The notes: generated from the sequence alone by a model not told the origin. Numbered from the stretch's first letter, positions 1-34,880 are shown. The stretch is DNA of 34,880 nucleotides from a virus (IMGVR_UViG_3300002859_000001:1-34880); one strand, 5' to 3'. Numbers and translations are program-made.

Positions 1-36
1 ACGTGGGTTCGACTTTGACGTCTTCCCCTCCACCAA
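1..36. repeat. 36-bp direct terminal repeat, copy 1 (identical to 34845-34880)
   Basis: acgtgggttcgactttgacgtcttcccctccaccaa occurs exactly at both window ends. Confidence 0.95.
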
Positions 37-2277: not shown

Positions 2278-3984
2278 TTAGGCGAACCTGATCGTCGACT
2301 GGATAACTTCGATTGTCTGGGTTCCCTTTGTAAGCGTGAAGCGGTACGCCAGGCCGTTAGTCGTTGCGACGGTTGTGTTCGTGAATGTGTGAACGTACAG
2401 GTTGACCTTCGACGTGATGTCTTCCCACACCGGCGAAGCGTCGAAAGGATTGTTCGTGACTTCGCAATGAAGAACACTATCCACGGGACGATCCGAAGGG
2501 TATAGAGAAACAAAGCATTTCGTGACCTTTTCATCAGTAGAAAAAGCGCGGGAAGCGGCTAACCTTGTGACCGTTCGACTGAAAGTGATCACGCGCTGGG
2601 CCGTTCCTCCGGCGCCGTCGCTGACACTGATCGTCAAAGTATGCGATCCGGCCAGAAGGCGAAGCCACAAAGAAGTCAAGTCAGCCGTGTTCGTCGCTCC
2701 GCTTGTTGCGGTGTAGGTGCGAAGGGTAATTGTTTCAGCCCCATTCGTCACCGTTTCAGTGACAGTCAATGTCTGACTGGCCGATTCCGCGTCGGTCACG
2801 GTGTAGTTGTAGGTCAAAGGTGTCGTTTTTGCGCCCACGTTCTGATCTGAACCGCTGATCACCGGATTCGTATTGTATGAAATAGGCGTGGCCGTTCCTG
2901 TCTGGTATGCTGATTCAGCGCCCAGGGAATCGACCGCCTTCACGCGGACCTGATAATTCGTTCCGGACGTCGGGACGGTGTCTGTGATCGAAGTCGAAGA
3001 CGTGATCCCGATCTGGACATAAGCCCCGGAATCGACGCGACGTTCGAAGACATAATTTATCGGATTGCCTTCCGGATCGGTTGACCCTCCGGTGGTAATA
3101 GTTAAAGATTGACCAGCGCGTGGGGTTCCGTGAGAAATAGAAGACGGGGTTGTTGGCGGCTGGTTCCACTGGATTATATAAGCGCCGTCGGTATCCACAG
3201 AATCAGATACCAAGATTCCAGAACCCACTTCCAAAGCCGGCCGAACGCCATAGTTGCCATTGTACGCGTAGTTGCTGCTGAGACTGCCGTCCGTGCTGAC
3301 AAACCGCGCATAGTACGAATAGCCGGCGTACGGGGTCCTTAACCACCAGTACCAGTATTGCGTTGACGAAAGACTGGCGTTTGTGTATTCGGACGCGCTG
3401 ACAGCTTCGGCCGTTGGATAACATTGTCTTCGGCTTGCGCTGTTGAAATAGTCCCACAGCGTACCTTCTGCGACGCTGTTTTCGTTCGCCAGCCCGACTT
3501 CTGTGTTTGAAAGAAGATAAATCTTTCGGACTATGTCTTCATACCCGCCGCCGTCGGTGACGGTATTCTTTGCGACCCTGATCGTACTGTCAAGGATTGC
3601 ATTCCTGAAACTTTCTTCGAAGAATGTTAGGAAGCCGGCCTGGGCGTCGTATTCGTTGTAGTTGGAATAAACATTCGCATTATTGGGCGGCGCGTCGTAA
3701 GCGTGGCGCGCGCTGTACCAGGCCCCAGCGCCGGCCGCGCTATTTAGCCATTGATCAATATTTGACTGACTGTAACGGTTATTTCCGTAGCTTTTTCTGT
3801 TGCTGTCTGGATTGCTGGCTTCAATCGCGTCGAAACATTTCAGGGTGATCATTCTTTCGGCGACCAGCTTCGTTCTTCCGGAAGCCTGGTGTCCGACAAT
3901 AAATCGAATGACGCTATTGTTGTACTTCGTGTTTACTGACTTCACGACTGATCCAACGGGTAACGTCGATATTAACTTTGCCAT
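2278..3984 (-). CDS. DGR target 1: tail-fibre/receptor-binding-like protein with an N-terminal variable ligand-binding domain (WWLR...GVRPA) followed by FN3/Ig-like repeats
   Basis: 568 aa. Residues 217-252 are encoded by the repeat that matches the RT-adjacent template. Downstream T/S-rich beta-type repeats (e.g. YVFERRVDSGAYVQIG...YQVRVKAVDSLGAES) look FN3-like. GGAGGG RBS. Confidence 0.8.
   Translation of the reverse strand: MAKLISTLPVGSVVKSVNTKYNNSVIRFIVGHQASGRTKLVAERMITLKCFDAIEASNPDSNRKSYGNNRYSQSNIDQWLNSAAGAGAWYSARHAYDAPPNNANVYSNYNEYDAQAGFLTFFEESFRNAILDSTIRVAKNTVTDGGGYEDIVRKIYLLSNTEVGLANENSVAEGTLWDYFNSASRRQCYPTAEAVSASEYTNASLSSTQYWYWWLRTPYAGYSYYARFVSTDGSLSSNYAYNGNYGVRPALEVGSGILVSDSVDTDGAYIIQWNQPPTTPSSISHGTPRAGQSLTITTGGSTDPEGNPINYVFERRVDSGAYVQIGITSSTSITDTVPTSGTNYQVRVKAVDSLGAESAYQTGTATPISYNTNPVISGSDQNVGAKTTPLTYNYTVTDAESASQTLTVTETVTNGAETITLRTYTATSGATNTADLTSLWLRLLAGSHTLTISVSDGAGGTAQRVITFSRTVTRLAASRAFSTDEKVTKCFVSLYPSDRPVDSVLHCEVTNNPFDASPVWEDITSKVNLYVHTFTNTTVATTNGLAYRFTLTKGTQTIEVIQSTIRFA
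3231..3336 (-). repeat. DGR variable repeat 1 (VR1)
   Basis: 106 nt aligning without gaps to 5196-5301, with 14 mismatches. Every mismatch has a coding-strand adenine on one of the two sides. Confidence 0.8.
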
Positions 3985-5044
3985 GATAGCCCTCCAATTC
4001 TTTAGAAAATAGACAGTAGAACAATTCGTCCGTCTGTCTGATTAGGTGGTGACTGTTGCCGTGTTCAGCATGGCCCGTCCAGCTTGCGTATGAAGCCAGG
4101 ATCGTTTCAAAGTCGACCCGGCCTTCGTCAAGCAATCCACGGAATTTTTTCAACTTCCGGCGGATTCGGTTCTTGCTATCACGGCGGATTTTCTGAACGA
4201 CCTTTCCGGTGTCCGTCATGAAGGTCCTGAATCCCAGAAAGTCGATTCCTTGTTTCAGTGGGAAGATCGCCGTCTTTTGATTCAGTTCCAGGCCCAGGTC
4301 TTCGACATACCGGCGAATTTCTTCCAGGCAATATCGAAGATGATCCTTGTCGTTGTGGATCAGATAAAAGTCGTCCATGTACCGGCCATAAAACTTGATT
4401 CCCAGGCGTTCCTTGATAAAGTGATCCATTCCAGAAAGATAGAGGACCGCGAACCATTGGCTGGTATGATTGCCGATCGGGATTCCTTTTCCTTCGGTGG
4501 AATCAATTATCATGTCAAGAAGCCACAGAACGTCGGGATCGTGAATGGTCCGACGAAGCTGTGACTTCAAAACGCCATGATCTATACTGTAAAAATATTT
4601 TCTTATGTCACATTTCAAGACCCAGCCGTCCGCCCCGAATTGCCGGTGATATTTCCGCATGAACATTTTCAGGCGGTCAAGGCCGAAATGTGTTCCCTTT
4701 CCCTTCTGGCTTGCGTAGTTGTCATAGATGAATGTCTTTTGAAGGCGTGGTTCCAGGACATTGTCGCAAAGGCTGTGCTGGACGATCTTGTCGCGAAACG
4801 AATTATACATGATCAATCTTTCCTTCGGTTCGTACACCATAAAACAGTTGTACGGGCTAAGTCGGTATTTCTTCGACGTCAGCATGTAGTGAAGGAAGGT
4901 CAGGTTTTCAAGTGCGTTGATCTCATATTTCACGACTGCATACTTCCAGCGTTTACCCTTCCGGGCTTCCATGTACGCCGTATAAAGATTATTCAGGTCT
5001 GCCAATTTTGCGAAGTCAGAAGTCGGGACCTGTTCTTCGCTCAA
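3914..5044 (-). CDS. DGR-type reverse transcriptase
   Basis: 376 aa with YMDD (GRYMDDF) and the DGR-typical motif-4 signature IGNHTSQ. Sits directly downstream of the template-like repeat and an Avd-like gene. Confidence 0.85.
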   Translation of the reverse strand: MSEEQVPTSDFAKLADLNNLYTAYMEARKGKRWKYAVVKYEINALENLTFLHYMLTSKKYRLSPYNCFMVYEPKERLIMYNSFRDKIVQHSLCDNVLEPRLQKTFIYDNYASQKGKGTHFGLDRLKMFMRKYHRQFGADGWVLKCDIRKYFYSIDHGVLKSQLRRTIHDPDVLWLLDMIIDSTEGKGIPIGNHTSQWFAVLYLSGMDHFIKERLGIKFYGRYMDDFYLIHNDKDHLRYCLEEIRRYVEDLGLELNQKTAIFPLKQGIDFLGFRTFMTDTGKVVQKIRRDSKNRIRRKLKKFRGLLDEGRVDFETILASYASWTGHAEHGNSHHLIRQTDELFYCLFSKELEGYHGKVNIDVTRWISREVSKHEVQQ

Positions 5045-5195
5045 AATAAAATCCTCCTTGCCGCTTATAGTCTGGGCGCCGTAGCCGAAGCCCTCGCGTC
5101 AGCAATCTTGTGTTTACCCTTGCGGGAAGGATATGCCCTCCTTTGTTGGGGTTCTCTGCTTTCAGGTTCTTCGCCTTACTCGGTCACGCTTTCCA
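5045..5195 (-). other. Non-coding spacer between template repeat and RT, presumed part of the DGR RNA
   Basis: About 150 nt with no credible ORF in the transcription direction, lying between the TR end and the RT start. In the Bordetella phage DGR this region is needed for cDNA priming. Confidence 0.4.
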
Positions 5196-5301
5196 CCAAA
5201 TCCGGCCGAACGCCATTGTAGCCACCGTACGCGTAGCTGCTGCCGAGACTGCCGTCCGAGTAGACAATCCGCGCATAGTTCGAAGTGCCGGCGTACGGGG
5301 T
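5196..5301 (-). repeat. DGR template-repeat-like copy (TR) in non-coding DNA between avd and RT
   Basis: Position is canonical for a TR. Homology to VR1 and VR2 starts at accccg and ends just after ggcgttcggccgg. The only ORFs over it are out-of-frame or antisense artefacts. Confidence 0.75.
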
Positions 5302-5327
5302 ACAGGGCATACCCTATATAAAGCCCG

Positions 5328-5783
5328 TCAGGCCTGGGGTTCGTCCTGGCTGGCCGGCGGTTTCTGGCCGTCTTCCAGTTCCGACTTGTACCAGGCGGCG
5401 GACATATACTTGACGTCAAGGGTTTTCTTCGTCCAATATTCGAAGGTCCCAGCGTCTATATAACCGCGCTTTTTCGAAAGTTCGACATAGAAAAGCAATA
5501 GCTTACAGTCTGTCAGCGCGGCCCGTTGTAGTTCTAATCTTTTGGCCTTGTCTGATTCGTTCCGGATCGGGAATATTTCATTCGCTTCCAGTAGATTTTC
5601 ATAAATCGAAAGGACGCGTTCCTGGATTCGGTTGACGATCGTGAACCTGATCTTCTTCGGGAAGTGTTTCGCGTTGTCCGTCAGATTCAGCGTGTAGTCA
5701 ATTAAATCAGCGACCACCGGAAGAACGTGAAGGGGACTATCGTTCCCAGGCTTCTTCCGTTGAAAATTCTTTCGTGTTCCCAT
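5328..5783 (-). CDS. avd: Accessory variability determinant (Avd-like four-helix-bundle protein)
   Basis: 151 aa, basic, helical. Pattern HFPKKIRFTIVNRIQERVLSIYENLLEAN ... LQRAALTDCKLLLFYVELS ... matches the Avd / 23S-rRNA-IVS protein family as I remember it. Immediately upstream of TR and RT. Confidence 0.7.
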   Translation of the reverse strand: MGTRKNFQRKKPGNDSPLHVLPVVADLIDYTLNLTDNAKHFPKKIRFTIVNRIQERVLSIYENLLEANEIFPIRNESDKAKRLELQRAALTDCKLLLFYVELSKKRGYIDAGTFEYWTKKTLDVKYMSAAWYKSELEDGQKPPASQDEPQA

Positions 5784-6003
5784 TTATGCACATTCGCCCC
5801 CTTATCGCGTCGATTGTTTCGCGCCGCCCGGTATAATCAAACCCGTAATCCCGAAGGATCAAGGCCTGTTCTTCACCCTCATATGTCACGCCGCAAAGAA
5901 CGACGCTGTCGCCGCCACAGTGGCCACAGACGGGCCGTAACTCGACGAATAGACATGATATAAGGCAAGACATTTCCGACGGCTTACAAGCGAATTTTGT
6001 CAC
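5737..6003 (-). CDS. Cys-rich hypothetical protein (88 aa)
   Basis: GTG start overlaps the TGA of the upstream fibre gene (GTGA). The 3' end overlaps the avd start by 47 nt. Contains CGHCGG and several other Cys. No family recognised. Confidence 0.35.
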   Translation of the reverse strand: MTKFACKPSEMSCLISCLFVELRPVCGHCGGDSVVLCGVTYEGEEQALILRDYGFDYTGRRETIDAIRGRMCINGNTKEFSTEEAWER

Positions 6004-6758
6004 AGATAAAGCCTGTTGTTTGACGTGTCAAGGACGCCTTCCGGAAGCCCTGATCCGTCATAACCTTTCCATTGTGAAAGTTGGCCGGACGCGAATGTGT
6101 GGGTTACGGTTGTTCCGGTAAAACCAGTGTCAAGCTGTTCCTTTATCGCCTGAATGTCGTAATCCTGGCGCCGCTGTGCTTCTTCGACGGACTGACCCGT
6201 CGATTCGATAACAGTTCCGGCCGCCTGTGTGTGGATCAGCGGCGCGGCGTAGGTTGTCATTTGTGCCGACGTCACGAAGGAAGAAGCCCCTACTTGTACG
6301 GAAACGGCGCTGTTTTCCTGGTTCGTAACGAAGACCGCCACGTCATGAATGTGGACCGTGTCAGCGGTGTCGCCTATTTCGCCCAGGAGAGAAGAAGGGG
6401 GAAGTATATTGTCGCTGTCAGTCCCGTCAAGCCAGGAATAAGCGAAAAGAAATTCGACATTGTCAGCGTCCAGGGCGAAGATTCCGATTTCTCTGATCCA
6501 GACAGAAGATTCAAGTCCGGCGTTTGTCACCTGGATCGGAATTTTCATGATCGAAGGATCGCCGGCGATAAATTCTTTAGCTTGAACCTGTGTGTCGACA
6601 GAAACGGGCGAAACAAGGGCGGTCAGTGTGTTAGGGCTTGCTGTTGGTGTTCCGTCGCCACTGGCCGCTCTTACCACTTGAAGCTGTAATCCTGACGCTA
6701 TCAGTTGGGTCAAGACTTCGCTTCCCCTGTCTGTGATTGTTGATCTAAAACGTGCCAT
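6000..6758 (-). CDS. Tail fibre protein, N-terminal collar-type domain
   Basis: ITDRGSEVLTQLIASGLQLQVVRAASGDG ... IREIGIFALD resembles the N-terminal domain of P2 gpH-type fibres. Follows the baseplate J / XkdU-like genes. Confidence 0.6.
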   Translation of the reverse strand: MARFRSTITDRGSEVLTQLIASGLQLQVVRAASGDGTPTASPNTLTALVSPVSVDTQVQAKEFIAGDPSIMKIPIQVTNAGLESSVWIREIGIFALDADNVEFLFAYSWLDGTDSDNILPPSSLLGEIGDTADTVHIHDVAVFVTNQENSAVSVQVGASSFVTSAQMTTYAAPLIHTQAAGTVIESTGQSVEEAQRRQDYDIQAIKEQLDTGFTGTTVTHTFASGQLSQWKGYDGSGLPEGVLDTSNNRLYL

Positions 6759-21664: not shown

Positions 21665-22936
21665 TCACTTTAAGACTTCGATTGATGAACCGCGACGGAT
21701 TCTTTCGACGGAATAACGAAGGGCCGCCATTGCGTCGTCCATGAATTCGACTGGTTCGTCTATATACAGGCCCGAAGTCGGGTCCTTTTTCCACTTCCAT
21801 TGTTGAATCTCTTTCAAAGTGTTCACGCAAGAAGGGTGAATGTGTATCTTGCGGCCTTTTAGGAAGTCGATCTGTGCTTTGACGCTTCCCTGTTCCTTTT
21901 TCACGGGATAGGCCCTGAATCCGGCTTTCTGCCAGGTCTTGATTCTGTCTGGCTCTGCCGAATCGCAAAACATTTCCACGCGGTGATCAACCTTTGCCGT
22001 CCTGGCCAGGCTGATAATTTCTTCCGTGTCCTTTTCGAAGCAATAGACTTCCGAACAGATATACAGTTCGCCGTCCTTTTGTCCGACGCCCAGGATCGCG
22101 TTCGCGTGGTTGAATCCGAAGTCCTGGCCATAATAAAACGCGTCGAAGTTTTCGCGCGTAGTGGGGAAGGTATGGACTTCAAAATTCGTAATGATCAGGC
22201 CGCCAAGTTCGCCCCATTCGCCCAGGCCATAGACGCGATAGCCTTCCGGGTCTTCCGTGGCTCTGCGCTCCATACGACGGAAATAACCGGCGTCAATGAA
22301 GCGGTTCGCCTTATATGTGGAATGGTGCGTCAGAACGTCCGAATCCTTCTTGTCGAAATATCGTCCCTTGATCCAGTGCGTAGCGCTGACAGGGTTGAAG
22401 GTCATTGTGATCTGATAGAACAGATTCGGGTTTAGATCGTCCAGATTACCACGAAGACGGTCGTCCAGAATGTCAATATCTTCGGAAAGAAGTTCTGTGG
22501 CTTCCTCAATCCATATCCACACCAGTTTCCCGCGTTTGAATGTAATTGATTTCACCTTCTCGCGTTGTCTTTGGTCCTTGACGCCGCGAAATATGACCTT
22601 GTTTCCTGTGATTCTGCATTCCAGGGCAAGGGGATTCAGGTTCACCTTCCAGAATTGGTCCGCATACTGGCCAAACATTCTATAAATGGCCGCTTGTAAT
22701 TCTGCGAAGGTACTGTCGCGGTTCGTTTCTTCGATCTTACGAACGACAAGAAGGTTCGCGCCGGCATAGGCCGGATCGGACAGCTTCGCGATATAGTCCT
22801 GGGCGATATTTACCGACTTCCCTGAACCGGCTGATCCTTTTAATATCCGGTATCTGGCACGGCTTTCGTTTACGTTACGGAATACAGGGTTAAACTGTGC
22901 CGCCGACCTGACTTCAATCTTCGCCGCCATAGTCAT
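21665..22936 (-). CDS. terL: Terminase large subunit (PBSX/XtmB-like)
   Basis: Walker A LKGSAGSGKS near the N-terminus, 423 aa, preceded by terS. Confidence 0.9.
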   Translation of the reverse strand: MTMAAKIEVRSAAQFNPVFRNVNESRARYRILKGSAGSGKSVNIAQDYIAKLSDPAYAGANLLVVRKIEETNRDSTFAELQAAIYRMFGQYADQFWKVNLNPLALECRITGNKVIFRGVKDQRQREKVKSITFKRGKLVWIWIEEATELLSEDIDILDDRLRGNLDDLNPNLFYQITMTFNPVSATHWIKGRYFDKKDSDVLTHHSTYKANRFIDAGYFRRMERRATEDPEGYRVYGLGEWGELGGLIITNFEVHTFPTTRENFDAFYYGQDFGFNHANAILGVGQKDGELYICSEVYCFEKDTEEIISLARTAKVDHRVEMFCDSAEPDRIKTWQKAGFRAYPVKKEQGSVKAQIDFLKGRKIHIHPSCVNTLKEIQQWKWKKDPTSGLYIDEPVEFMDDAMAALRYSVERIRRGSSIEVLK

Positions 22937-23411
22937 AGTTGATCACCACCGTAACAGGGATATTCGCTTCCGGGTTATCCTTGAACATTCCCAGGTGTTT
23001 TCCGCATAGTTCAAGGGCTTTCAGCTTATCAGCCAGGCGGATTTCTCTTTCAACGCCTTCGCCGTCTGCTGTTGGAATAGTCTTGACCTTTACGGAAGCG
23101 ATCGCCGCTGTGTCGTCTTCGGAAGCGCTTTCTGATATTGTCGCGCTATCGAAGTTAATGACGTCAGCCGCGTTCACGAATGCGATCCTGGCGATCTCAC
23201 GAAGGACGCGGTCAGCGTTGATCCCAGTCCTTTTCGATCTCTCGGCCAGGGCTTCATCTATACGCGCGCGAATTTCAGGTTTTTCAAGGTTTTCACTTCC
23301 TATTGATCCCGCGCTTTCAACGCTATAACCGGCGCGAATCGCCGCCTGTGTGGCGTTTAGATCAATCAGGTATTCTTCACAGAAGACTTTTTGTTTCTTC
23401 GTCAATGCCAC
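22914..23411 (-). CDS. terS: Terminase small subunit (Terminase_2-like)
   Basis: LTKKQKVFCEEYLIDLNATQAAIRAGYS is the classical N-terminal HTH of this family. Confidence 0.9.
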   Translation of the reverse strand: MALTKKQKVFCEEYLIDLNATQAAIRAGYSVESAGSIGSENLEKPEIRARIDEALAERSKRTGINADRVLREIARIAFVNAADVINFDSATISESASEDDTAAIASVKVKTIPTADGEGVEREIRLADKLKALELCGKHLGMFKDNPEANIPVTVVINYDYGGED

Positions 23412-26286: not shown

Positions 26287-26554
26287 CTTCCTGGGCGGCC
26301 CTGGCGGCCATGATTTCCATTGACCGAAGGAACGTGTATTCAGAAAAAGCTAACTGTCCGATCATTTCTTCGGTTAGGATGACAAGGTATTCGTCGCCGT
26401 AACCGTCTTCGCCGTATGTACGACCGGCGCGCTCGTTGATGAATTCCAGCTTTCGCCTTGCGTATCTCTCGGCCTTTTCAAAGAAGGCGGGGCATATTTC
26501 AGCCCCGATCCTTTCTTCGACGGCCGCCTTTAAGTTAAAAGTCGTCGTCTTCAT
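26270..26554 (-). CDS. Hypothetical protein (start at MKTTTFNL; longer ORF-track version overlaps target 2)
   Basis: 94 aa. The ATG at 26554 overlaps the end of the upstream gene by 20 nt. Confidence 0.4.
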   Translation of the reverse strand: MKTTTFNLKAAVEERIGAEICPAFFEKAERYARRKLEFINERAGRTYGEDGYGDEYLVILTEEMIGQLAFSEYTFLRSMEIMAARAAQEGGADE

Positions 26555-27209
26555 CTTCGTCGCCCTCCGTGCCTGAAAGCGCTTCGTTCCGATCTGTGCG
26601 CCTGAATAGTTCTTCGACAGAATCAGAAAGATTGACTTCGTCTTCTTCCAGGACAATTTCGATTCCAGATTCCAGCCGGAAAGCCGGCCGAACGCCATAG
26701 TAGCCATCGTACGCGCCGTGGTAGTAGAGGCTGCCGTCCGTGTAGACAAGCCGCGCGTCGTACGAATAGCCGGCGCGCGGGGTTATCAGCCACCACCAGT
26801 CGTCAAGTTCAAGAAGGTCCTGTTCGGCGTACTTTTCAAATTGCTTCTGGGATAGAAGACCGATCTTGTCCTGGCTTGTCCCATATCCGGCGCCGCCCTG
26901 GTGATCCGAAAGGTCCCATTCAGTGGAAACGATCCTGTCTGTGTTGATCTTTCCGGCCGCCCTCAATGCCGACATGAAGTTTTCGTTCAGGTCTTTTCGA
27001 ATTGTGCTGTTTCGCCAGTCGTTCAGATTAAAACCTTCCGGGCGCTCGTATAAAAGCGGGAACAGGTTGAAAGGTCTGTCGCCGATTGATTCGGCCGTGA
27101 TAACAAGTGTCGTCCCGTCTGTGAAGTGTTCCAATATCCGAAGTGTAGCCGGTCCCGCGTTAAACTCTGACCCGATAGCCAGGTCCTTAATTTTTGTTTT
27201 TACTGCCAT
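26535..27209 (-). CDS. DGR target 2 candidate: stand-alone WWL..GVRPA variable-domain protein with acidic tail (alternative start 27227)
   Basis: AGGAGG sits 8 nt before ATG 27209. Same domain type as the N-terminus of target 1 (NDWRNSTIRKDLNENF ... DWWWLITPRAGYSY...GVRPAF). No signal peptide or TM. Ends EGDEDEDDDF. Confidence 0.7.
   Translation of the reverse strand: MAVKTKIKDLAIGSEFNAGPATLRILEHFTDGTTLVITAESIGDRPFNLFPLLYERPEGFNLNDWRNSTIRKDLNENFMSALRAAGKINTDRIVSTEWDLSDHQGGAGYGTSQDKIGLLSQKQFEKYAEQDLLELDDWWWLITPRAGYSYDARLVYTDGSLYYHGAYDGYYGVRPAFRLESGIEIVLEEDEVNLSDSVEELFRRTDRNEALSGTEGDEDEDDDF
26680..26783 (-). repeat. Third copy of the DGR repeat (VR2)
   Basis: Aligns without gaps to TR 5196-5301 with 22 mismatches: 9 have the A in TR, 6 have the A in VR2, and 7 have no A on either side. 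Confidence 0.6.
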
Positions 27210-27615
27210 TTTGTTTTCCTCCTTCATAATCTTCGATCACGACTTCGACGCGTGGGTTTTTCGGGTCCACAGCGAAGGAATCGGTGAAATATTCAATATG
27301 CTTCCAGCCGTCATTTTGTAGGACGCCCATGTGGACAAGGCTGTCCTGGACGAACTTCTTCGCAAACGCGATATTGTCTTTGTCGCGTCGCCTGTTCGGT
27401 TCAACCCATGTGTAATGGATAACGACCGGACCTGAAAACGTGACGCCGCGAAGCTGTGTTTTTATCATGTAGCCGATAACGTGTTCGGCCTGTTTCTTCA
27501 TAGACGCCGCCTTGTATTTGCCTTTTTTGCCGCGTTCTGCGTCTATGTACTCATTCAGTCCGGGCAATAGGCCCGGAACAGTGAATTTACAGCGCAAGAC
27601 TTCACTTCCTTTCAT
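27187..27615 (-). CDS. rusA: RusA-like Holliday junction resolvase
   Basis: 142 aa. RRRDKDNIAFAKKFVQDSLVHMGVLQNDGW matches the RusA D..N...K...D pattern. Confidence 0.75.
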   Translation of the reverse strand: MKGSEVLRCKFTVPGLLPGLNEYIDAERGKKGKYKAASMKKQAEHVIGYMIKTQLRGVTFSGPVVIHYTWVEPNRRRDKDNIAFAKKFVQDSLVHMGVLQNDGWKHIEYFTDSFAVDPKNPRVEVVIEDYEGGKQNGSKNKN

Positions 27616-28475
27616 TCCAGGCCAAGAAGCTTCCTGGCCTTATCTCTTCGATCTATCGCGTTCCCTGTTCGCCTGGAATCGCCGACCAGTTTCAGCCGGA
27701 TCTGACACATTCCCAGGACGCGGTCATATGTTCGCGAATGTGCCAGGGAAGGCGGGTTCTTTAGGTCTTCCATGGATAGGTTCGTCGTGACGATCAGTGG
27801 CATTCCGGACCTTGACCTGGTATCAACGACGTTGAAGACCTGTTCCACGGAATAGGACGTGTCCCGCTCGACGCCAAGATCGTCAATGACCAGCAATTTA
27901 TAACGCTGTAACTTGTCAATGAACGCCTGGCGTTCTTCGTCGAAGCCTTGAAGCCTGTTCAGGATTCGGGGGAAGTTCGTCACACTGACCGACACCAGCT
28001 TTTCAAGAAGGGCGTTCGCTATGCAACAGGCCAGGAATGACTTTCCGGTTCCGACGCCGCCATAAAACAGAATTCCGATATTGTCCTTTTTCATTTCCTC
28101 CCAGTTCTCGACGTACTTCCGGCATACTTGCGATACTTCCGGATTTCTCTTGTCGTCCTGGTCGAAAGTGTATTGAAGATATGCTGGATCGGTTATCCCG
28201 TCTTTCTGTAACATAGACATTCGCTGGTGAAATTCTTTGCGTTCTCGATCAGCTTTTTCTTTTGCGATTTCTTCCTGTCTGCATTTACAAGCCACGCCGA
28301 CGCGTCTGACTTTTTTCTGTCCGAAGCTTTCTGGAAGCGTAATTTCAAATTGCTTCCGCGTGTGACATTTTCCGCAAACAAGGAATCCTTCGCCGTCAGT
28401 GTAGTCGCCTTCTTCGTAGTTGTTCAGGCTTTTAGCCGCCAGACTGTCAAATATGGCATTTCCTAATGGTTCCAT
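27612..28475 (-). CDS. DnaC/IstB-like AAA+ helicase loader
   Basis: Walker A GGVGTGKSF, Walker B LLVIDDLG, and an N-terminal Cys cluster. Confidence 0.85.
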   Translation of the reverse strand: MEPLGNAIFDSLAAKSLNNYEEGDYTDGEGFLVCGKCHTRKQFEITLPESFGQKKVRRVGVACKCRQEEIAKEKADRERKEFHQRMSMLQKDGITDPAYLQYTFDQDDKRNPEVSQVCRKYVENWEEMKKDNIGILFYGGVGTGKSFLACCIANALLEKLVSVSVTNFPRILNRLQGFDEERQAFIDKLQRYKLLVIDDLGVERDTSYSVEQVFNVVDTRSRSGMPLIVTTNLSMEDLKNPPSLAHSRTYDRVLGMCQIRLKLVGDSRRTGNAIDRRDKARKLLGLE

Positions 28476-29264: not shown

Positions 29265-30038
29265 TCACGCTTTCTTCTGGCACGAACGACACAGTTCGCG
29301 CCCGAACTTCTTCATGGAATAACCCTGTTCAGCTTCTGAAATAGGTCCGCCGCATTCAGGACACACAGCGCCACCGCTGGACGCGCCCTGTTTGGCTGTG
29401 TGCGCCGTTTGGCTTGTTGCCTGGGTGTTTGTATTGCCAGACCCGTTTCGCGCTCCTGTGGTCGATTTTGGCGGTCCTTCTGACTTGCCTGTCATATTGA
29501 AGCGGACTGTCCCCGAACGATCCATAATGACCAGTTCGGATATTTCACGCCTGTCGTTGTATCCGATATGTGACACTTCGAACCTGGTGTTCGGATAACA
29601 CCTGTAAATGTCTTTCGCTCCTTGCTTTTCGCTGTAATACTCCGAATCACCAAGTTCGACATAGATGAAGGGTCCGGTGTATAGTTCGCGGCCGATTCCG
29701 ACGTTGAATCCGGCGCGCTTGAATGCGTCCGAAGCCTGTCCTTTTTCCTTTTCGGTGTTGCTCTCGACGCCAACGTCCTGTTTTCTGACCCAGGTTTTCT
29801 TTTCTTCGTCCCACACGTCAATATTGCAGAACAGATTGCCGTTGATTACTTCGTGGGTCCTTTGCCAGTTGCCAGGGCCGAAGACCTGGTCAAGAATTCG
29901 CATATCGACACGGGCGTCTTTGTAGATCAGAAGGACGGCGCCGACACGGCCAGATTTGTTCTTGCTGACACTTTGAACGCGACACTCAACGTCCTGGGCT
30001 GTCAGTAATGGAATTTCAAACTGTTTCATTTCCGGCAT
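29265..30038 (-). CDS. Rad52/Sak-family single-strand annealing protein with C-terminal zinc ribbon (ORF track start 30059)
   Basis: QASDAFKRAGFNVGIGRELY is the conserved Rad52-fold motif. C-terminal CPECG...CRSC. Confidence 0.75.
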   Translation of the reverse strand: MPEMKQFEIPLLTAQDVECRVQSVSKNKSGRVGAVLLIYKDARVDMRILDQVFGPGNWQRTHEVINGNLFCNIDVWDEEKKTWVRKQDVGVESNTEKEKGQASDAFKRAGFNVGIGRELYTGPFIYVELGDSEYYSEKQGAKDIYRCYPNTRFEVSHIGYNDRREISELVIMDRSGTVRFNMTGKSEGPPKSTTGARNGSGNTNTQATSQTAHTAKQGASSGGAVCPECGGPISEAEQGYSMKKFGRELCRSCQKKA

Positions 30039-30900
30039 TTTCCGCCGACCTCCTTTCAAGGTAGTAATTGCAGAATTCGCAAGCGGAACAATAATCAGCG
30101 CATTTCTTGTCTTCGCCTGGGCGGACCTGAATTTCGTCGCCGCTGTTGTCCGATTTCCACTTTTCAGCTTCTTCCATGCTATCCAGTACGCGAAGGGCTG
30201 TCTTGCGGCCTTTCTTCATGACTGCGAATTTGTCGCCGCTGTTGAAGCGTTCTTCCGGCGTACAGATCGGAAGGTCTTCGTCGGCCAGCTTTTCAGCTTC
30301 TGCGACCTCTGCGAATCTTGCTGTCAGCCATTCTTCGCATTCAACGAAGTCGGCTTCTGTGAATTTGAATTTCACGGTATGGACCGGAAATTTCGGATAG
30401 TCAGCTTTGATCTTTGCGTCGCGCTTGCTATGGTCTTTCAGGAATGCGACGATCTCGCCACCCTGGGCGTCGAATCCAATCTTTCGAAGCATATAGCAAT
30501 AGATCAGCGTCTGGCGTCGCCAGTCTTCAAAGTCCCCGAAGATGATCTTCCAGACAGAAGCGGTCTTATAATCTGTAACAATTTTCGTTTCGTCTGAATA
30601 AAGATCGAATTGTCCGGACAGAATATAATTACAGAAGGGAACCTTGATTCGTTCTTCCTTTAATTCGTGGCCGGCTTCCTGGTGCTTTTCAAGGATACCG
30701 TGAACGGCCGTCCCAAACAGAAGCCAGACCATGTCCGAAACGTCGCGTTCGATCTCTTTGTCGTGGCGGCGTTCCAGGATCGTTTCCCTGACACCTTTCA
30801 AAAGAGAAGTCACGCGGTATTCGTTCGGTTCGAATACATAGTCGCGCTGGGCCAGGCTGACAAAAGGGGAAGGAAGGTTCATATTGTTGGTAATGATCAT
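30016..30900 (-). CDS. PD-(D/E)XK (Cas4/RecB-like) exonuclease with C-terminal Cys cluster
   Basis: GQFDLY...IVTDYKT core motifs plus C..YC..C..C at the C-terminus. Paired with the annealase. Confidence 0.75.
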   Translation of the reverse strand: MIITNNMNLPSPFVSLAQRDYVFEPNEYRVTSLLKGVRETILERRHDKEIERDVSDMVWLLFGTAVHGILEKHQEAGHELKEERIKVPFCNYILSGQFDLYSDETKIVTDYKTASVWKIIFGDFEDWRRQTLIYCYMLRKIGFDAQGGEIVAFLKDHSKRDAKIKADYPKFPVHTVKFKFTEADFVECEEWLTARFAEVAEAEKLADEDLPICTPEERFNSGDKFAVMKKGRKTALRVLDSMEEAEKWKSDNSGDEIQVRPGEDKKCADYCSACEFCNYYLERRSAENAGNETV

Positions 30901-33377: not shown

Positions 33378-34880
33378 ACGCGGTTATATATGCCAGGTAT
33401 TCGCCAGGCGGCGATCAGACGGAACAGTCTATCGAAGGCCAGCTTCGGGAATGCCGCGAATTTGCTGACAGGTATGAAATAACGATCGTTGGCGTTTATA
33501 GCGACCATGCAATGACGGGAAAGAACGACCGCCGGCCGGATTTTCTTCGTATGATCGCGGACAGCGAAAGCGGGAAGTTTGAAGCGGTGATCGTCTGGAA
33601 GCTGGACCGTTTCGCCCGTAACAGATACGACAGCGCGATATATAAGGCGAAGCTGAAAAAGAATGGCGTCAAGGTCATTTCAGCCAAAGAGAATATAACG
33701 GACAGCCCGGAAGGGATTATCCTTGAAGCAATGCTGGAAGGCATGGCCGAATATTATTCTGCTAACCTGGCCCAGAACATAAAGCGCGGCATGAAAGAAA
33801 GCGCCCTGAAATGCCAGGTCACGGGCGGAAATATCGCGGCCGGTTATAAGATAGGGCCGAACAAAGAATTCTTGATTGATCCGCCTCAGGCCGCAATCGT
33901 GAAAGAAATATTCGAAAGGTATGACAGCGGCGAAACAGTCACCCAGATCATAACGGCCTTGAATGGTCGTGGCCTGAAAACTTCACGCGGAAAAGCCTTC
34001 GGACACAATAGCCTTCATACAATTTTGAAGAACGAAAAATATATCGGTGTTTATAAATGGAATGACGTCGTAATCGAAGACGGCGTTCCTTCAATTATAG
34101 ATCGCGACCTATTTGACCGGGTTCAGGAAAAAATGACACTGAATAAACGGGCGCCGGCCAGGGCTTCGGGGAAGGTGGACTATTTGTTATCGACGAAGTT
34201 GTTTTGTGGTAAGTGCGGGACGAATATGAATGGCGAAAGCGGCACAAGCAAGACAAAAGGCCGCAAGCATTATTATTATAAATGCGCGTCAGCGAAGCGA
34301 AGGAAGGGCTGTGACAAGAAGCCTGTGAAGAAGGACTGGATCGAAAAACTGGTTGTCACGGAAACAGTCCGTCGCGTCCTGGTTGACCAGGTGATCGAAG
34401 CGATCGCCGACAAGGTGATTGAACTTCAAGGCCGCGAACGTGACAGAAGCATTCTTCGCGCTCTTGAAATGGAACTGGAAGGCGTCAAGAAGTCTATTGC
34501 GAATCTGGTCAAGGCTGTCGAAGCCGGTATCTTTTCAGAATCGACACAGGCCCGTCTGTCTGAACTTGAAAAAGAAAAGAAGGACCTTGAAGGGCGTGTT
34601 GTCCAGGAAGAAATTATCACGCCGAAGGTGACAAAGAACCAGGTGATCTTCTGGCTGGAACAATTCAAAAACGGGGACGTGAACGATCCTTCATATCAGA
34701 AGAAGATCATTGACGTATTCGTCCAGGCCGTTTTTGTTTATGATGATCATATAACGATAACTTATAATTACATTGATGAAAGCGGACGACCGCGAACGGT
34801 ACAGGTTGAAAAAGGCGACTTTCCGACCGATCCGACGAAGTGCGACGTGGGTTCGACTTTGACGTCTTCCCCTCCACCAA
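33374..34880 (+). CDS. int: Large serine recombinase (integrase), open at the window end
   Basis: AVIYARYSPGGDQTEQSIEGQ ... VIVWKLDRFARN resolvase catalytic domain, a recombinase domain, a CGKCG...YYYKC zinc-beta-ribbon and a coiled coil. No stop before 34880. ATGA overlap with the upstream gene. Confidence 0.9.
   Translation, partial: MNAVIYARYSPGGDQTEQSIEGQLRECREFADRYEITIVGVYSDHAMTGKNDRRPDFLRMIADSESGKFEAVIVWKLDRFARNRYDSAIYKAKLKKNGVKVISAKENITDSPEGIILEAMLEGMAEYYSANLAQNIKRGMKESALKCQVTGGNIAAGYKIGPNKEFLIDPPQAAIVKEIFERYDSGETVTQIITALNGRGLKTSRGKAFGHNSLHTILKNEKYIGVYKWNDVVIEDGVPSIIDRDLFDRVQEKMTLNKRAPARASGKVDYLLSTKLFCGKCGTNMNGESGTSKTKGRKHYYYKCASAKRRKGCDKKPVKKDWIEKLVVTETVRRVLVDQVIEAIADKVIELQGRERDRSILRALEMELEGVKKSIANLVKAVEAGIFSESTQARLSELEKEKKDLEGRVVQEEIITPKVTKNQVIFWLEQFKNGDVNDPSYQKKIIDVFVQAVFVYDDHITITYNYIDESGRPRTVQVEKGDFPTDPTKCDVGSTLTSSPPP
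34845..34880. repeat. 36-bp direct terminal repeat, copy 2
   Basis: Identical to 1-36 and lies inside the integrase reading frame. Confidence 0.95.

What the first reader, a model, noticed from the sequence alone, without database searches (positions are those of the whole stretch)
2278..5783. Complete diversity-generating retroelement embedded between tail-fibre genes
Read on the minus strand, the order is: an Avd-like four-helix protein (5783-5328), a 106-nt non-coding repeat (5301-5196), a ~150-nt spacer, an RT with YMDD and the DGR-type IGNHTSQ motif (5044-3914), and a 568-aa fibre-like protein. The fibre-like protein's residues 217-252 are encoded by a gap-free copy of the repeat (3336-3231). 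Together these parts form a phage tropism-switching cassette. The avd-TR-RT-target order, with the target downstream of the RT, differs from the better-known target-avd-TR-RT layout.
Basis: partly seen in the sequence, partly recalled or inferred. Interest (0 to 1): 0.8.

Follow-up and report, generated by a model that had tools for sequence, protein, structure and literature searches.

The report
Phage DGR with self-mutated template
This is a real diversity-generating retroelement in a complete 35-kb phage genome, but its supposedly invariant template repeat has itself lost 14 of 32 adenines to DGR-type mutagenesis, so template and targets no longer match in the textbook way.

Summary
These are Avd, a 106-nt repeat pair, a 151-nt spacer, an RT with IGNHTSQ and YMDD, and a 568-aa target. 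The RT is Brt-like (32% identity, E 1e-53), so this is a DGR.

1. There is a second target. It is a 230-aa DUF6273 protein 21 kb away (VR 26680-26783). In seven relatives its VR follows the cognate TR at all non-A sites but one.

2. The TR/VR mismatches are not canonical. Only 6 of 14 have the A in the TR; the other 8 have the A in the VR.

The cause lies in the TR. The nearest relative (L198, identical Avd protein) differs at 3 of 624 flanking bases but at 15 of 106 TR bases, and 14 of those 15 are adenines lost in the window. About 85 related TRs keep 28-34 A. The window has 18, the most eroded of 108 TR versions surveyed.

The same erosion occurs independently in relatives, including an isolate genome (Senimuribacter sp. 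DSM 106208). Five of the TR's new bases occur in neither resident VR.

The likeliest cause is mutagenised cDNA entering the TR itself. This is known from engineered SSAP-coupled DGRs. The phage encodes an Erf-like SSAP.

The parts
5328..5783 (-). avd (accessory variability determinant), 151 aa
   Evidence: phrog_3206 'Avd protein of DGR' E 3.5e-33. NCBIfam DivGenRetAVD E 3.9e-8, below the curated cutoff. Pfam bAvd E 2.9e-4, below cutoff. No BLASTP similarity to BPP-1 Avd. The identical protein occurs on two independent contigs, L197 and L198.
5196..5301 (-). Template repeat (TR), adenine-eroded: 18 A, versus 32 A in the nearest relative
   Evidence: It sits between avd and the RT, with TR-type flanks and the TR-type A at repeat position 101. 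It differs from the L198 TR at 15 sites, 14 of them A-sites, while 624 flanking bases show 3 differences. About 85 family TRs have 28-34 A. It lies inside an incidental 44-aa ORF (5176-5310) that gene callers report.
5196..5214 (-). TR 3' end, GGCGTTCGGCCGGATTTGG: a GC-rich element plus the TR-specific A (IMH*-like)
   Evidence: The 13-nt stretch GGCGTTCGGCCGG is identical in the TR and in every VR retrieved here by a pattern containing it. Position 101 is A in all those TRs and C in all those VRs, and homology ends 3-5 nt later. Its function as IMH/IMH* is inferred by analogy with BPP-1 (PMC3240598).
5045..5195 (-). Spacer between TR and RT; probably the structured 3' part of the DGR RNA
   Evidence: 1.3% divergence from L001, against 4-7% in the surrounding non-DGR genes. 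No differences from L198 over the 100 nt of the spacer that L198 covers. RNAalifold on 9 relatives finds 44 pairs, 8 of them with compensatory changes. No Rfam family matches.
3914..5044 (-). DGR reverse transcriptase, 376 aa (TTG start)
   Evidence: 32% identity over 331 aa to BPP-1 Brt, E 1e-53; IGNHTSQ aligns to IGSLTSQ. PDB 8ub7_A E 8e-47, versus 1e-11 for the best retron-type RT and 6e-11 for the best group II intron RT. Pfam RVT_1 2e-18. phrog_1423 8e-142. ORF intact; tblastn best-segment identity to L001 is 99% over residues 1-376.
2278..3984 (-). Target gene 1, 568 aa: DUF6273 domain (residues 39-253) followed by Ig/FN3-like domains
   Evidence: Pfam DUF6273 E 4e-39 and Big_9 E 1.5e-3. 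phrog_10993 'Hoc-like head decoration' E 4.6e-237. PDB 9qa6_A 'IgA protease' residues 9-262, E 5e-7.
3231..3336 (-). VR1, encoding codons 217-252 of target 1
   Evidence: Against the L198-type TR it has 12 A-site differences and 1 non-A difference (27C>T, which the window TR shares). It shares the lineage-specific AGTCTC motif with the window TR. It still has A at 8 sites where the present TR has lost A.
26535..27227 (-). Target gene 2, 230 aa, DUF6273 domain, located in the replication/recombination module
   Evidence: Pfam DUF6273 E 1e-13. phrog_9958 E 1.8e-66. Homologues form 90%-identity clusters with up to 2271 distinct member sequences.
26680..26783 (-). VR2 (104 nt), 21.4 kb from the TR
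   Evidence: Found by blastn. In 7 relatives the homologous VR matches the cognate TR at every non-A site of positions 1-104 with one exception, and follows lineage-specific TR polymorphisms. In the window it fits the L198-type TR with one non-A mismatch (54T>C), but has 12 non-A mismatches to the present TR within positions 1-104.
29265..30900 (-). Context only: Erf-like ssDNA-annealing protein (29265-30059) and exonuclease (30016-30900)
   Evidence: phrog_1097 'Erf-like ssDNA annealing protein' E 1.9e-24 and phrog_2139 'exonuclease' E 5e-71. Pfam PDDEXK_1. Their role in TR erosion is a hypothesis and was not tested.

Best explanation
The region is a canonical phage DGR with the layout avd, TR, structured spacer, Brt-like RT. 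It serves two DUF6273-domain targets: the adjacent 568-aa protein (VR1) and a 230-aa protein 21 kb away (VR2).

**Normal operation (inferred from BPP-1).** The TR-spacer RNA is reverse-transcribed by RT-Avd, with misincorporation opposite adenines. The cDNA then replaces the VR up to the GC-rich element GGCGTTCGGCCGG.

**What is special here.** In this genome the flow of information has also hit the template. The TR has lost 14 of its 32 adenines, replaced by T, G or C, in a VR-like pattern. Both VRs were written before this erosion, or before its last step, so they still carry A where the TR no longer does.

**Most likely cause (inferred).** Adenine-mutagenised cDNA was incorporated into the TR locus itself by homology. 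The phage's own Erf-like annealing protein and exonuclease may have helped, as happens in engineered SSAP-coupled DGRs.

**Consequence.** The theoretical protein repertoire per target falls from about 10^17 to about 10^9.6. The next homing event would fix TR-encoded residues at the eroded positions.
For: **DGR identity.** Searches support the RT and Avd assignments.

**Family-level activity.** In relatives, VR1 differs from its own TR at 11-16 A-sites with no non-A difference, apart from a single one in L010. VR2 differs at 9-18 A-sites and has no non-A difference within positions 1-104 in 6 of 7 relatives.

**Erosion of the TR.**
- L198 encodes the identical Avd protein (3 silent differences in avd) and has identical TR flanks. 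It differs at 3 of 624 flanking bases but at 15 of 106 TR bases, 14 of them at A. With A making up 30% of sites, the binomial P is about 5e-7.
- Against L001, divergence is 1.9% in the RT and 14.2% in the TR.
- Of 27 distinct family TR sequences (26 from the collections plus the window), 24 have 28-34 A and 3 have 14-18 A. None falls in between.

**Independent cases.**
- The isolate genome L072 has a TR with 14 A. All 18 changes are at A-sites, and its VR keeps A at 12 of them.
- L108 has 18 A.
- The eroded TR version P0182 was assembled in 9 sequencing runs.
- Partly eroded TRs occur in L209, L211, L212 and L213.

**Not copied from the resident VRs.** At 17C, 43T, 58G, 65G and 77G the TR carries bases found in neither VR1 nor VR2. 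Those VR positions are still A (VR2 has T at 58).

**The DGR can still work after partial erosion.** The L211 VR carries the TR's new bases at all 5 eroded sites and differs at 19 other A-sites plus the fixed position 101. The readable part of the L209 VR behaves the same way.

**Assembly.** The contig is circular with a 36-nt terminal overlap. The longest exact TR/VR match is 15 nt, so a de Bruijn path switch between the assembled loci is implausible.

**Precedent.** TR self-mutagenesis occurs in SSAP-coupled engineered DGRs (bioRxiv 10.1101/2025.03.24.644984; 10.64898/2026.07.21.739853). The phage encodes an Erf-like SSAP and an exonuclease.
Against: - No reads are available, so the window's own TR sequence cannot be verified read by read. 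Its exact TR version is a singleton in the protein collection.
- The window's contig was not found in the three contig collections scanned.
- No intermediate TR state of this lineage was found.
- The eroded TR is statistically indistinguishable from an ordinary VR. A donor VR from a co-infecting relative therefore cannot be excluded.
- TR and VR1 share 6 identical derived A-site states plus the non-A change 27T. This fits a two-step history, but the test run against the L001-like inferred template (5 of 5 shared states identical) is only marginally above the empirical expectation (p about 0.05).
- Close relatives with intact TRs probably carry the same SSAP, so its presence does not discriminate. 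This was not checked.
- The RT-dependence of the erosion is inferred only from its adenine specificity.
Confidence: 0.72

Rival explanations
1. VR-to-TR gene conversion. Ordinary homologous recombination, independent of the RT, copied a VR or patches of VRs into the TR.
For: - The eroded TR looks like a typical selected VR in a site-likelihood test.
- 6 of the 14 lost-A sites carry the same base as VR1, and 4 carry the same base as VR2.
- In relatives the erosion is tract-like, confined to the 5' or 3' half.
- The eroded 5' part of the L209 TR is identical to its VR.
- TR/VR recombination without RT activity has been seen in an engineered system.
Against: - Five new TR bases (17C, 43T, 58G, 65G, 77G) are present in neither resident VR. 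A VR cannot regain A from a TR that has lost it, so those VRs were never the donors.
- In L072, VR1 agrees with the TR at only 1 of 18 eroded sites.
- In L211 the VR differs from the TR at A-sites lying between the eroded sites (65, 74, 77). That is the signature of TR-to-VR homing, not of a VR-to-TR tract.
Confidence: 0.12
2. Assembly artefact. The TR in this metagenome contig is a chimera or mixed consensus of TR and heterogeneous VR reads.
For: - The window is a metagenome contig (JGI/IMG; also in MetaClust).
- Its TR version is seen only once.
- The 36-nt terminal overlap hints at a fairly short assembly k-mer.
- Repeats with heterogeneous copies are hard to assemble, and several relatives' contigs break at the TR.
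Against: - TR-specific flanks begin 6 nt before the first eroded site, and the TR-specific A101 lies 19 nt after the last one. Any k of 21 or more therefore links eroded bases to TR-only sequence.
- The longest exact TR/VR match is 15 nt.
- Five TR bases exist in neither assembled VR.
- The same phenomenon is present in an isolate genome (L072), in 9 independent run assemblies of one strain, and in ENA k141 assemblies.
Confidence: 0.07
3. Gradual canalisation. Ordinary point mutations at TR adenines were fixed one by one by selection, locking favourable residues into the VRs. This is what a 2026 theory preprint predicts for stable environments.
For: - Theory predicts loss of TR adenines (bioRxiv 10.64898/2026.02.18.706561).
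- Some lineages carry one or two fixed losses, for example 7T and 22T in L046-type TRs.
- 6 eroded sites equal the VR1 state.
Against: - 14 A-specific changes arose while 624 flanking bases gained 3.
- The distribution of A counts is bimodal, 28-34 versus 14-18.
- At 8 eroded sites VR1 still has A, so the TR does not encode the resident VR state.
- The replacement spectrum (7 T, 6 G, 1 C) matches that of VRs.
Confidence: 0.05
4. Canonical, undamaged DGR. On this view the non-A mismatches are RT infidelity at G, C or T, or random drift in the VR. This is the reading implicit in the first-stage finding.
For: Non-A-to-N TR/VR differences are reported in 23% of curated DGRs, with up to 11 in a single target gene (PMC5758913).
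Against: - All 8 non-canonical mismatches have A in the VR.
- The outgroup TRs (L198, L197, L001) have A at exactly those sites, which places the change in the TR, not the VR.
Confidence: 0.03

Closest known systems
Bordetella phage BPP-1 DGR (mtd-avd-TR-brt)
   Same: - Brt-like RT: 32% identity full-length, with the IGxxxSQ and YMDD motifs.
- An Avd-family accessory gene, and a TR between avd and the RT.
- A VR at the C-terminal end of a ligand-binding domain.
- An AAY-rich ancestral TR.
- A GC-rich element at the 3' end of the repeat, followed by TR/VR-specific sequence.
   Different: - The target lies downstream of the RT and overlaps it by 71 nt.
- The VR sits mid-protein (residues 217-252 of 568) in a DUF6273 domain.
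- There is a second target 21 kb away.
- Avd shows no BLASTP similarity to BPP-1 Avd.
- In BPP-1 the TR is described as unchanged throughout (PMC3240598). Here the TR itself is adenine-mutagenised.
Architecture B1 DGRs with non-adjacent targets inside prophages (Wu et al. 2018, PMC5758913)
   Same: An avd-TR-RT core with variable target position. Phage-associated DGRs with a second target within 50 kb are described, as are non-A-to-N TR/VR differences.
   Different: In that survey the non-A-to-N differences were attributed to RT infidelity, cDNA integration or independent mutation. Here outgroup TRs polarise them as adenine loss in the TR.
Engineered SSAP-coupled DGRs in E. coli (DGRec and related; bioRxiv 10.1101/2025.03.24.644984 and 10.64898/2026.07.21.739853)
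   Same: Mutagenised cDNA is incorporated at the TR locus as well as at the target. This progressively removes adenines from the TR in the presence of a RecT-type annealing protein. The window's phage encodes an Erf-like annealing protein and an exonuclease.
   Different: Those are synthetic plasmid systems, and one of the papers contrasts them with natural DGRs. Here the evidence is comparative genomics only, and the role of the phage SSAP is untested.
DGR-carrying phages of gut Clostridia (e.g. Faecalibacterium phages FP_Toutatis and Lelie; uncultured 'Phage nd12')
   Same: These are the only DNA-level relatives in the GenBank phage collection, at 67-72% identity over parts of the RT and target.
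   Different: They are distant, and no near relative exists in that collection. The closest relatives are uncultured IMG/VR, ENA and Logan contigs, and prophages in Senimuribacter, Geosporobacter and Gudongella genomes and in Oscillospiraceae MAGs.

Membership tests
Diversity-generating retroelement (DGR) | RT belongs to the DGR clade: closer to Brt than to group II intron or retron RTs, with [I/L/V]GxxxSQ in place of QGxxxSP | tested here: met
   BLASTP to BPP-1 Brt: E 1e-53, 32% identity over 331 aa; IGNHTSQ aligns with IGSLTSQ. PDB best hit 8ub7_A E 8e-47, versus 1e-11 (retron-type RT) and 6e-11 (group II intron RT). No formal phylogeny was built.
Diversity-generating retroelement (DGR) | A near-identical repeat pair: a non-coding TR next to the RT and a VR inside a protein-coding target | tested here: met
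   106-nt gap-free repeat, 87% identical, E 7e-33. A second VR of 104 nt was also found.
Diversity-generating retroelement (DGR) | TR/VR differences fall (almost) only at TR adenines | tested here: not met
   For the present TR, VR1 has 6 A-site and 8 non-A differences, and VR2 has 9 A-site and 14 non-A. The criterion is met against the nearest relative's TR: VR1 12 A-site / 1 non-A; VR2 17 A-site / 1 non-A within positions 1-104. It is met almost perfectly in relatives. The failure is explained by adenine loss in the TR.
Diversity-generating retroelement (DGR) | Accessory gene avd adjacent to the TR | tested here: met
   phrog_3206 'Avd protein of DGR' E 3.5e-33. The NCBIfam and Pfam hits are significant but below their curated cutoffs.
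Diversity-generating retroelement (DGR) | IMH/IMH* asymmetry at the 3' end of the repeats that sets the direction of transfer | tested here: inconclusive
   There is a conserved GC-rich 13-mer. Position 101 is a fixed A in TRs and a fixed C in VRs, and the sequences diverge beyond position 104-106. Hairpins downstream of the VRs are not significant (z 0.35 and -0.75). Function cannot be tested with these tools.
Diversity-generating retroelement (DGR) | Ongoing diversification: VR heterogeneity at TR-adenine positions within a population | not testable with these tools
   No reads are available. Indirect evidence: VRs of relatives differ from one another at A-sites, and target homologues form 90% clusters with up to 2271 distinct sequences. 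In the window neither VR has been rewritten since the last TR change.
Diversity-generating retroelement (DGR) | The variable protein presents the VR on a C-type-lectin (or Ig) fold. This is typical of DGRs but not strictly defining. | tested here: inconclusive
   The AlphaFold2 model of the 230-aa target has mean pLDDT 66.5, with the VR region below 50. There is no significant Foldseek hit in the PDB. The domain is Pfam DUF6273. The only solved homologue by sequence is 9qa6_A 'IgA protease'.
Group II intron / retron | An RT above the family threshold together with the cognate structured RNA (intron domains or msr/msd) | tested here: not met
   NCBIfam group_II_RT_mat scores 104 bits against a cutoff of 300, and retron St85 scores 41 against 235. 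There are no Rfam matches anywhere in the window.

The most novel reading that the evidence does not exclude
In this phage family the template repeat is itself a low-frequency substrate of mutagenic retrohoming. It would be hit by homology-driven, possibly SSAP-assisted, incorporation of adenine-mutagenised cDNA. Natural DGRs would then have a built-in ageing or canalisation process:
- TRs lose adenines in tracts or over their whole length;
- the DGR keeps running on the narrowed template, as in L211 and L209;
- the element finally burns out.

The window would be the most advanced natural case seen. TR erosion would also explain many of the unexplained 'non-A-to-N' TR/VR mismatches in DGR catalogues, and some DGRs that A-bias filters discard.
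Probability: 0.5. Interest if true: 0.75.

Novelty: new member of a known kind. Interest (0 to 1): 0.6.

Why it matters
The standard DGR model treats the TR as an invariant master copy, protected by the IMH/IMH* asymmetry. This locus and its relatives give comparative evidence that natural TRs can suffer the same adenine-specific mutagenesis as VRs.

- **Scale.** The window has lost 14 of 32 adenines, while its nearest relative differs by only 0.5% in the flanks.
- **Recurrence.** The same erosion appears in a cultured isolate's prophage, which can be used for experiments.
- **Questions made testable.** How is TR integrity maintained? Do phage recombination proteins open a second, homology-driven route for cDNA? 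How do DGRs decay, or narrow their search space?
- **Practical consequence.** DGR finders that require a high A-bias are likely to miss or mis-score such loci. Polarising mismatches with outgroup TRs would separate TR erosion from RT infidelity.
- **Second target.** The non-structural 230-aa protein in the replication module is a diversified phage protein of unknown role.

Tried and rejected
- **Fold of the target.** I built an AlphaFold2 model of the 230-aa target from a 44-sequence alignment. The VR region has low confidence and there is no significant Foldseek PDB hit, so a C-type-lectin fold is not shown.
- **Hairpins.** Hairpins or cruciforms downstream of the VRs and the TR fold no better than shuffled sequence.
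- **Selected VR versus raw cDNA.** A site-likelihood test could not tell whether the eroded TR looks like a selected VR or like raw cDNA. The eroded TRs fall within the bulk of VRs.
- **One-step versus two-step erosion.** I tested the states shared by the TR and VR1, measured against the L001-like inferred template. Five of five co-mutated sites are identical, but the empirical null from 67 VRs gives p of about 0.05, which is suggestive only.
- **Exact look-ups.** The window's RT (two start choices), its 568-aa target and its TR-ORF are not among the indexed contigs. Hypothetical intermediate TR-ORFs are also absent. Independent assemblies of the window's own strain could not be obtained.
- **GenBank phages.** Only distant hits at 67-72% identity.
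- **Identity of PDB 8ub7.** No paper in the library mentions it. I compared directly with BPP-1 Brt from NC_005357 instead.
- **Literature.** I found no report of natural TR self-mutagenesis. Absence from this open-access library does not prove it is unreported.
- **Single TR/VR crossover.** Rejected, because sites private to the TR and sites shared with VR1 interleave along the repeat.

Full report
**1.

On the minus strand the window has, in order:
- a 151-aa ORF (5328-5783);
- a 106-nt repeat copy (5196-5301);
- a 151-nt spacer;
- a 376-aa RT ORF (3914-5044) containing IGNHTSQ and YMDD;
- a 568-aa ORF (2278-3984), overlapping the RT ORF by 71 nt.

Codons 217-252 of the 568-aa ORF are a gap-free second copy of the repeat (3231-3336). 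The two copies are identical at 92 of 106 positions, with blastn E 7e-33 within the window.

**2. It is a DGR**

- The RT aligns over its full length with Brt of Bordetella phage BPP-1 (32% identity, E 1e-53; IGNHTSQ pairs with IGSLTSQ).
- Its best solved-structure match (8ub7_A, E 8e-47) is far ahead of retron-type (1e-11) and group II intron (6e-11) RTs.
- NCBIfam group II intron and retron models score far below their cutoffs, and no Rfam RNA family is present in the window.
- The 151-aa protein hits PHROG 'Avd protein of DGR' at 3.5e-33. Its NCBIfam and Pfam Avd hits are weaker.
- The target carries Pfam DUF6273 (E 4e-39) followed by Ig-like domains.
- The spacer between TR and RT is the best-conserved non-coding stretch. 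Across nine relatives it folds into a common structure with 8 compensatory pairs, as expected for the 3' part of a DGR RNA.

**3. The window is a whole phage genome**

- The contig has a 36-nt terminal overlap, so it is circular, about 34.84 kb, 49.6% GC.
- It encodes a repressor-like regulator, exonuclease, Erf-like annealing protein, replication initiator, DnaC-like loader, RusA, SSB, terminase, portal, sheath, tape measure, baseplate, tail fibre (6000-6758), the DGR cassette, a holin-like gene and an endolysin.
- The cassette therefore lies between the tail-fibre gene and the lysis genes.
- The target's best PHROG label is 'Hoc-like head decoration'. Calling it a fibre or a tropism determinant is plausible from its position, but untested.

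**4. There is a second target**

- A third repeat copy lies at 26678-26783, in a 230-aa DUF6273 protein (26535-27227), between RusA and a 3D-domain peptidase in the replication module.
- In seven relatives where the TR and this gene are on the same contig, the VR matches the cognate TR at every non-A position of 1-104, with one exception (7T>G in L176). It follows lineage-specific TR polymorphisms such as GCCTGGAGCGGCTAC in L044/L173, and differs at 9-18 A-sites.
- It is therefore a genuine non-adjacent target. Such targets are known for prophage DGRs (PMC5758913).

**5. The anomaly**

- On the coding strand only 6 of the 14 TR/VR1 mismatches have A in the TR. The other 8 have G, T or C in the TR and A in the VR. 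VR2 has 14 non-A mismatches to the TR.
- Relatives with 80-99% identical RTs have classic AAY-rich TRs. Their VRs differ from their own TR at 11-16 A-sites with no non-A difference, apart from a single one in L010.
- The oddity therefore lies in the window's TR.

**6. Polarising the change**

- Two independent short contigs, L197 (Logan) and L198 (ENA), encode an Avd identical to the window's and carry the TR locus with identical flanks. Their TR has 32 adenines.
- Over the 730 nt of L198 there are 18 differences from the window: 3 in avd, none in the TR-avd gap or the spacer, and 15 in the TR. Of those 15, 14 are A in L198 replaced by T (7 times), G (6) or C (1) in the window. The fifteenth is 27C>T.
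- With adenines making up 30% of TR sites, 14 or more of 15 changes falling on adenines has P of about 5e-7.
- Against L001 the RT, avd and spacer diverge by 1.3-2.0%, and the TR by 14.2%.
- VR1 fits the L198-type TR with 12 A-site differences and the same 27T. It also shares the lineage-specific AGTCTC motif with the window TR, so it was written by this lineage's TR.
- VR2 fits the L198-type TR with one non-A mismatch.
- Both VRs therefore predate the erosion, or its last step. Neither has been rewritten since.

**7. It is not a one-off**

- I scanned three public collections for the TR 3' end and recovered about 85 family TRs. Of 27 distinct TR sequences (26 from the collections plus the window), 24 have 28-34 A and 3 have 14-18 A. 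None falls in between.
- One of the three is in an isolate genome, Senimuribacter sp. DSM 106208 (L072). It has the same cassette, a TR with 14 A, all 18 changes at A-sites, and a VR that still has A at 12 of them.
- The TR lies in an incidental 44-aa ORF that gene callers report. A profile of that ORF retrieved 163 TR-ORF clusters from 5.8 billion proteins. Among the 108 distinct TR versions analysed (136 TR-ORFs with the TR-type tail), the window's is the most eroded, with 11 of 13 Asn codons lost.
- Variation within TR-ORF clusters is concentrated at Asn codons.
- One eroded TR (P0182) was assembled in nine sequencing runs of one study, so it is heritable.

**8. What relatives say about the process**

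- L211 has lost A at 64, 67, 76, 82 and 85. Its VR carries the same bases at all five sites and differs at 19 other A-sites plus the fixed position 101, including A-sites that lie between the eroded ones. The readable part of the L209 VR behaves the same way. The DGR therefore kept writing from a partly eroded template.
- In L212 and L213, as in the window and L072, the VR still has A or another base at most of the eroded sites (4 of 6 in L212, 6 of 8 in L213), so the VR is older than the erosion.
- In these relatives the erosion is confined to the 5' or the 3' half of the TR, which suggests replacement tracts.

**9. Mechanism (inference)**

- The changes are adenine-specific and arrive in bursts, about 44% of adenines here, which is similar to a single VR rewriting. 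Their replacement spectrum matches that of VRs. This points to DGR cDNA rather than ordinary mutation.
- Copying from the resident VRs is excluded for at least five sites. At 17C, 43T, 58G, 65G and 77G neither VR has the TR's base, and a VR cannot regain A once the TR has lost it.
- The TR keeps its TR-type 3' end and flank. Entry was therefore probably not through the canonical IMH route but by homology.
- The phage encodes an Erf-like annealing protein and an exonuclease. In engineered DGRs coupled to a RecT-type protein, the TR is mutagenised and progressively loses adenines. One of those papers contrasts this with natural systems.
- Whether the phage SSAP is involved is untested. Relatives with intact TRs probably carry it too; this was not checked.
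- The six derived A-site states shared by the TR and VR1 hint at two successive erosion steps with a VR1 rewriting in between. The test run against the L001-like inferred template (5 of 5 shared states identical) gives only marginal support (p about 0.05).

**10. Artefact check**

- TR-specific sequence lies 6 nt before the first eroded site, and the TR-specific A101 lies 19 nt after the last one.
- The longest exact TR/VR match is 15 nt.
- Five TR bases are absent from both VRs.
- A de Bruijn chimera is therefore implausible even at a k of about 37. Only the reads can settle the question for this particular contig.

**11. Consequences**

- The number of mutable adenines falls from 29 to 16.
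- The theoretical protein repertoire falls from about 10^17.1 to about 10^9.6.
- RT and Avd are intact, so the element may still work on a narrowed template.

**12. Comparison with what is known, and verdict**

- The cassette is an ordinary member of the DGR family, architecture B1 with a non-adjacent second target.
- Natural adenine erosion of the TR appears not to be documented in the literature I could search. Standard descriptions say the TR remains unchanged. A large survey left non-A-to-N mismatches unexplained. A 2026 theory preprint predicts adenine loss by ordinary mutation.
- I therefore rate the element as a new member of a known kind, in an unusual and informative state, with interest 0.6.

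Noticed in passing
L115 1980-2460; also L086, L094, L124, L140 (fermentation-metagenome contigs). Matches in window at 5179-5214, 22378-22414, 22700-22729, 23095-23128, 26851-26883, 27847-27883: A CRISPR array (repeat GTTTCAATTCCTCATAGGTAAGATAAAATC, 206 distinct spacers) holds several spacers against this phage family. One spacer, present twice in L115, is identical to the TR 3' end plus spacer junction of L002/L003-type relatives and matches the window at 36 of 37 bases. Another lies in the second DGR target gene. An adjacent spacer appears to encode the RT motif W-K-G-H-A-E-H-G.
   Followed up: partly
window 29265-30900 (-): An Erf-like ssDNA-annealing protein and a PD-(D/E)XK exonuclease sit next to the replication genes. 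This is a phage recombineering module that could give cDNA a homology-driven route into the TR.
   Followed up: partly
window 2278-3984 (residues 10-262) and 26535-27227 (residues 140-187): The DUF6273 domain has one solved homologue by sequence, PDB 9qa6_A 'IgA protease' (1145 aa, residues 9-262; E 5e-7 for the 568-aa target and 1e-4 for the profile of the 230-aa family). The fold of that domain could not be inspected here.
   Followed up: partly
P0068, P0070, P0106 and others (homologues of window 26535-27227): Homologues of the small second target form 90%-identity clusters with 1649-2271 distinct member sequences, mostly from ENA or Logan assemblies. This is a footprint of hypervariation in very abundant relatives.
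   Followed up: no
L201, L204, L205 versus L199, L200 (contigs carrying TR-ORF P0182): The same eroded TR and RT appear in two upstream contexts. One is the normal tail-fibre plus 152-aa avd. In the other, head-tail connector genes are followed by a 77-aa ORF where avd should be. This is either a rearranged or deleted variant, or a k=31 assembly chimera.
   Followed up: no
P0124; L112, L085, L157, L138 (TR loci of relatives): Some TRs carry length changes. P0124 has an internal duplication of about 57 nt, L112 has an insertion, and L157 and L138 have lost one AAC unit.
   Followed up: no
window 5176-5310 (-): The TR sits in an incidental 44-aa ORF, in the same frame as the VR, that gene callers annotate (some sources label it DUF6273). 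The ORF is absent from the L046/L072 lineage, where one extra base shifts the frame, so it is probably not a gene. It is a convenient handle for finding TRs in protein databases.
   Followed up: yes
window 1-36 and 34845-34880: A 36-nt terminal direct overlap shows the contig is a circular assembly of a complete phage genome. No integrase and no tRNA were found among the ORFs examined.
   Followed up: partly
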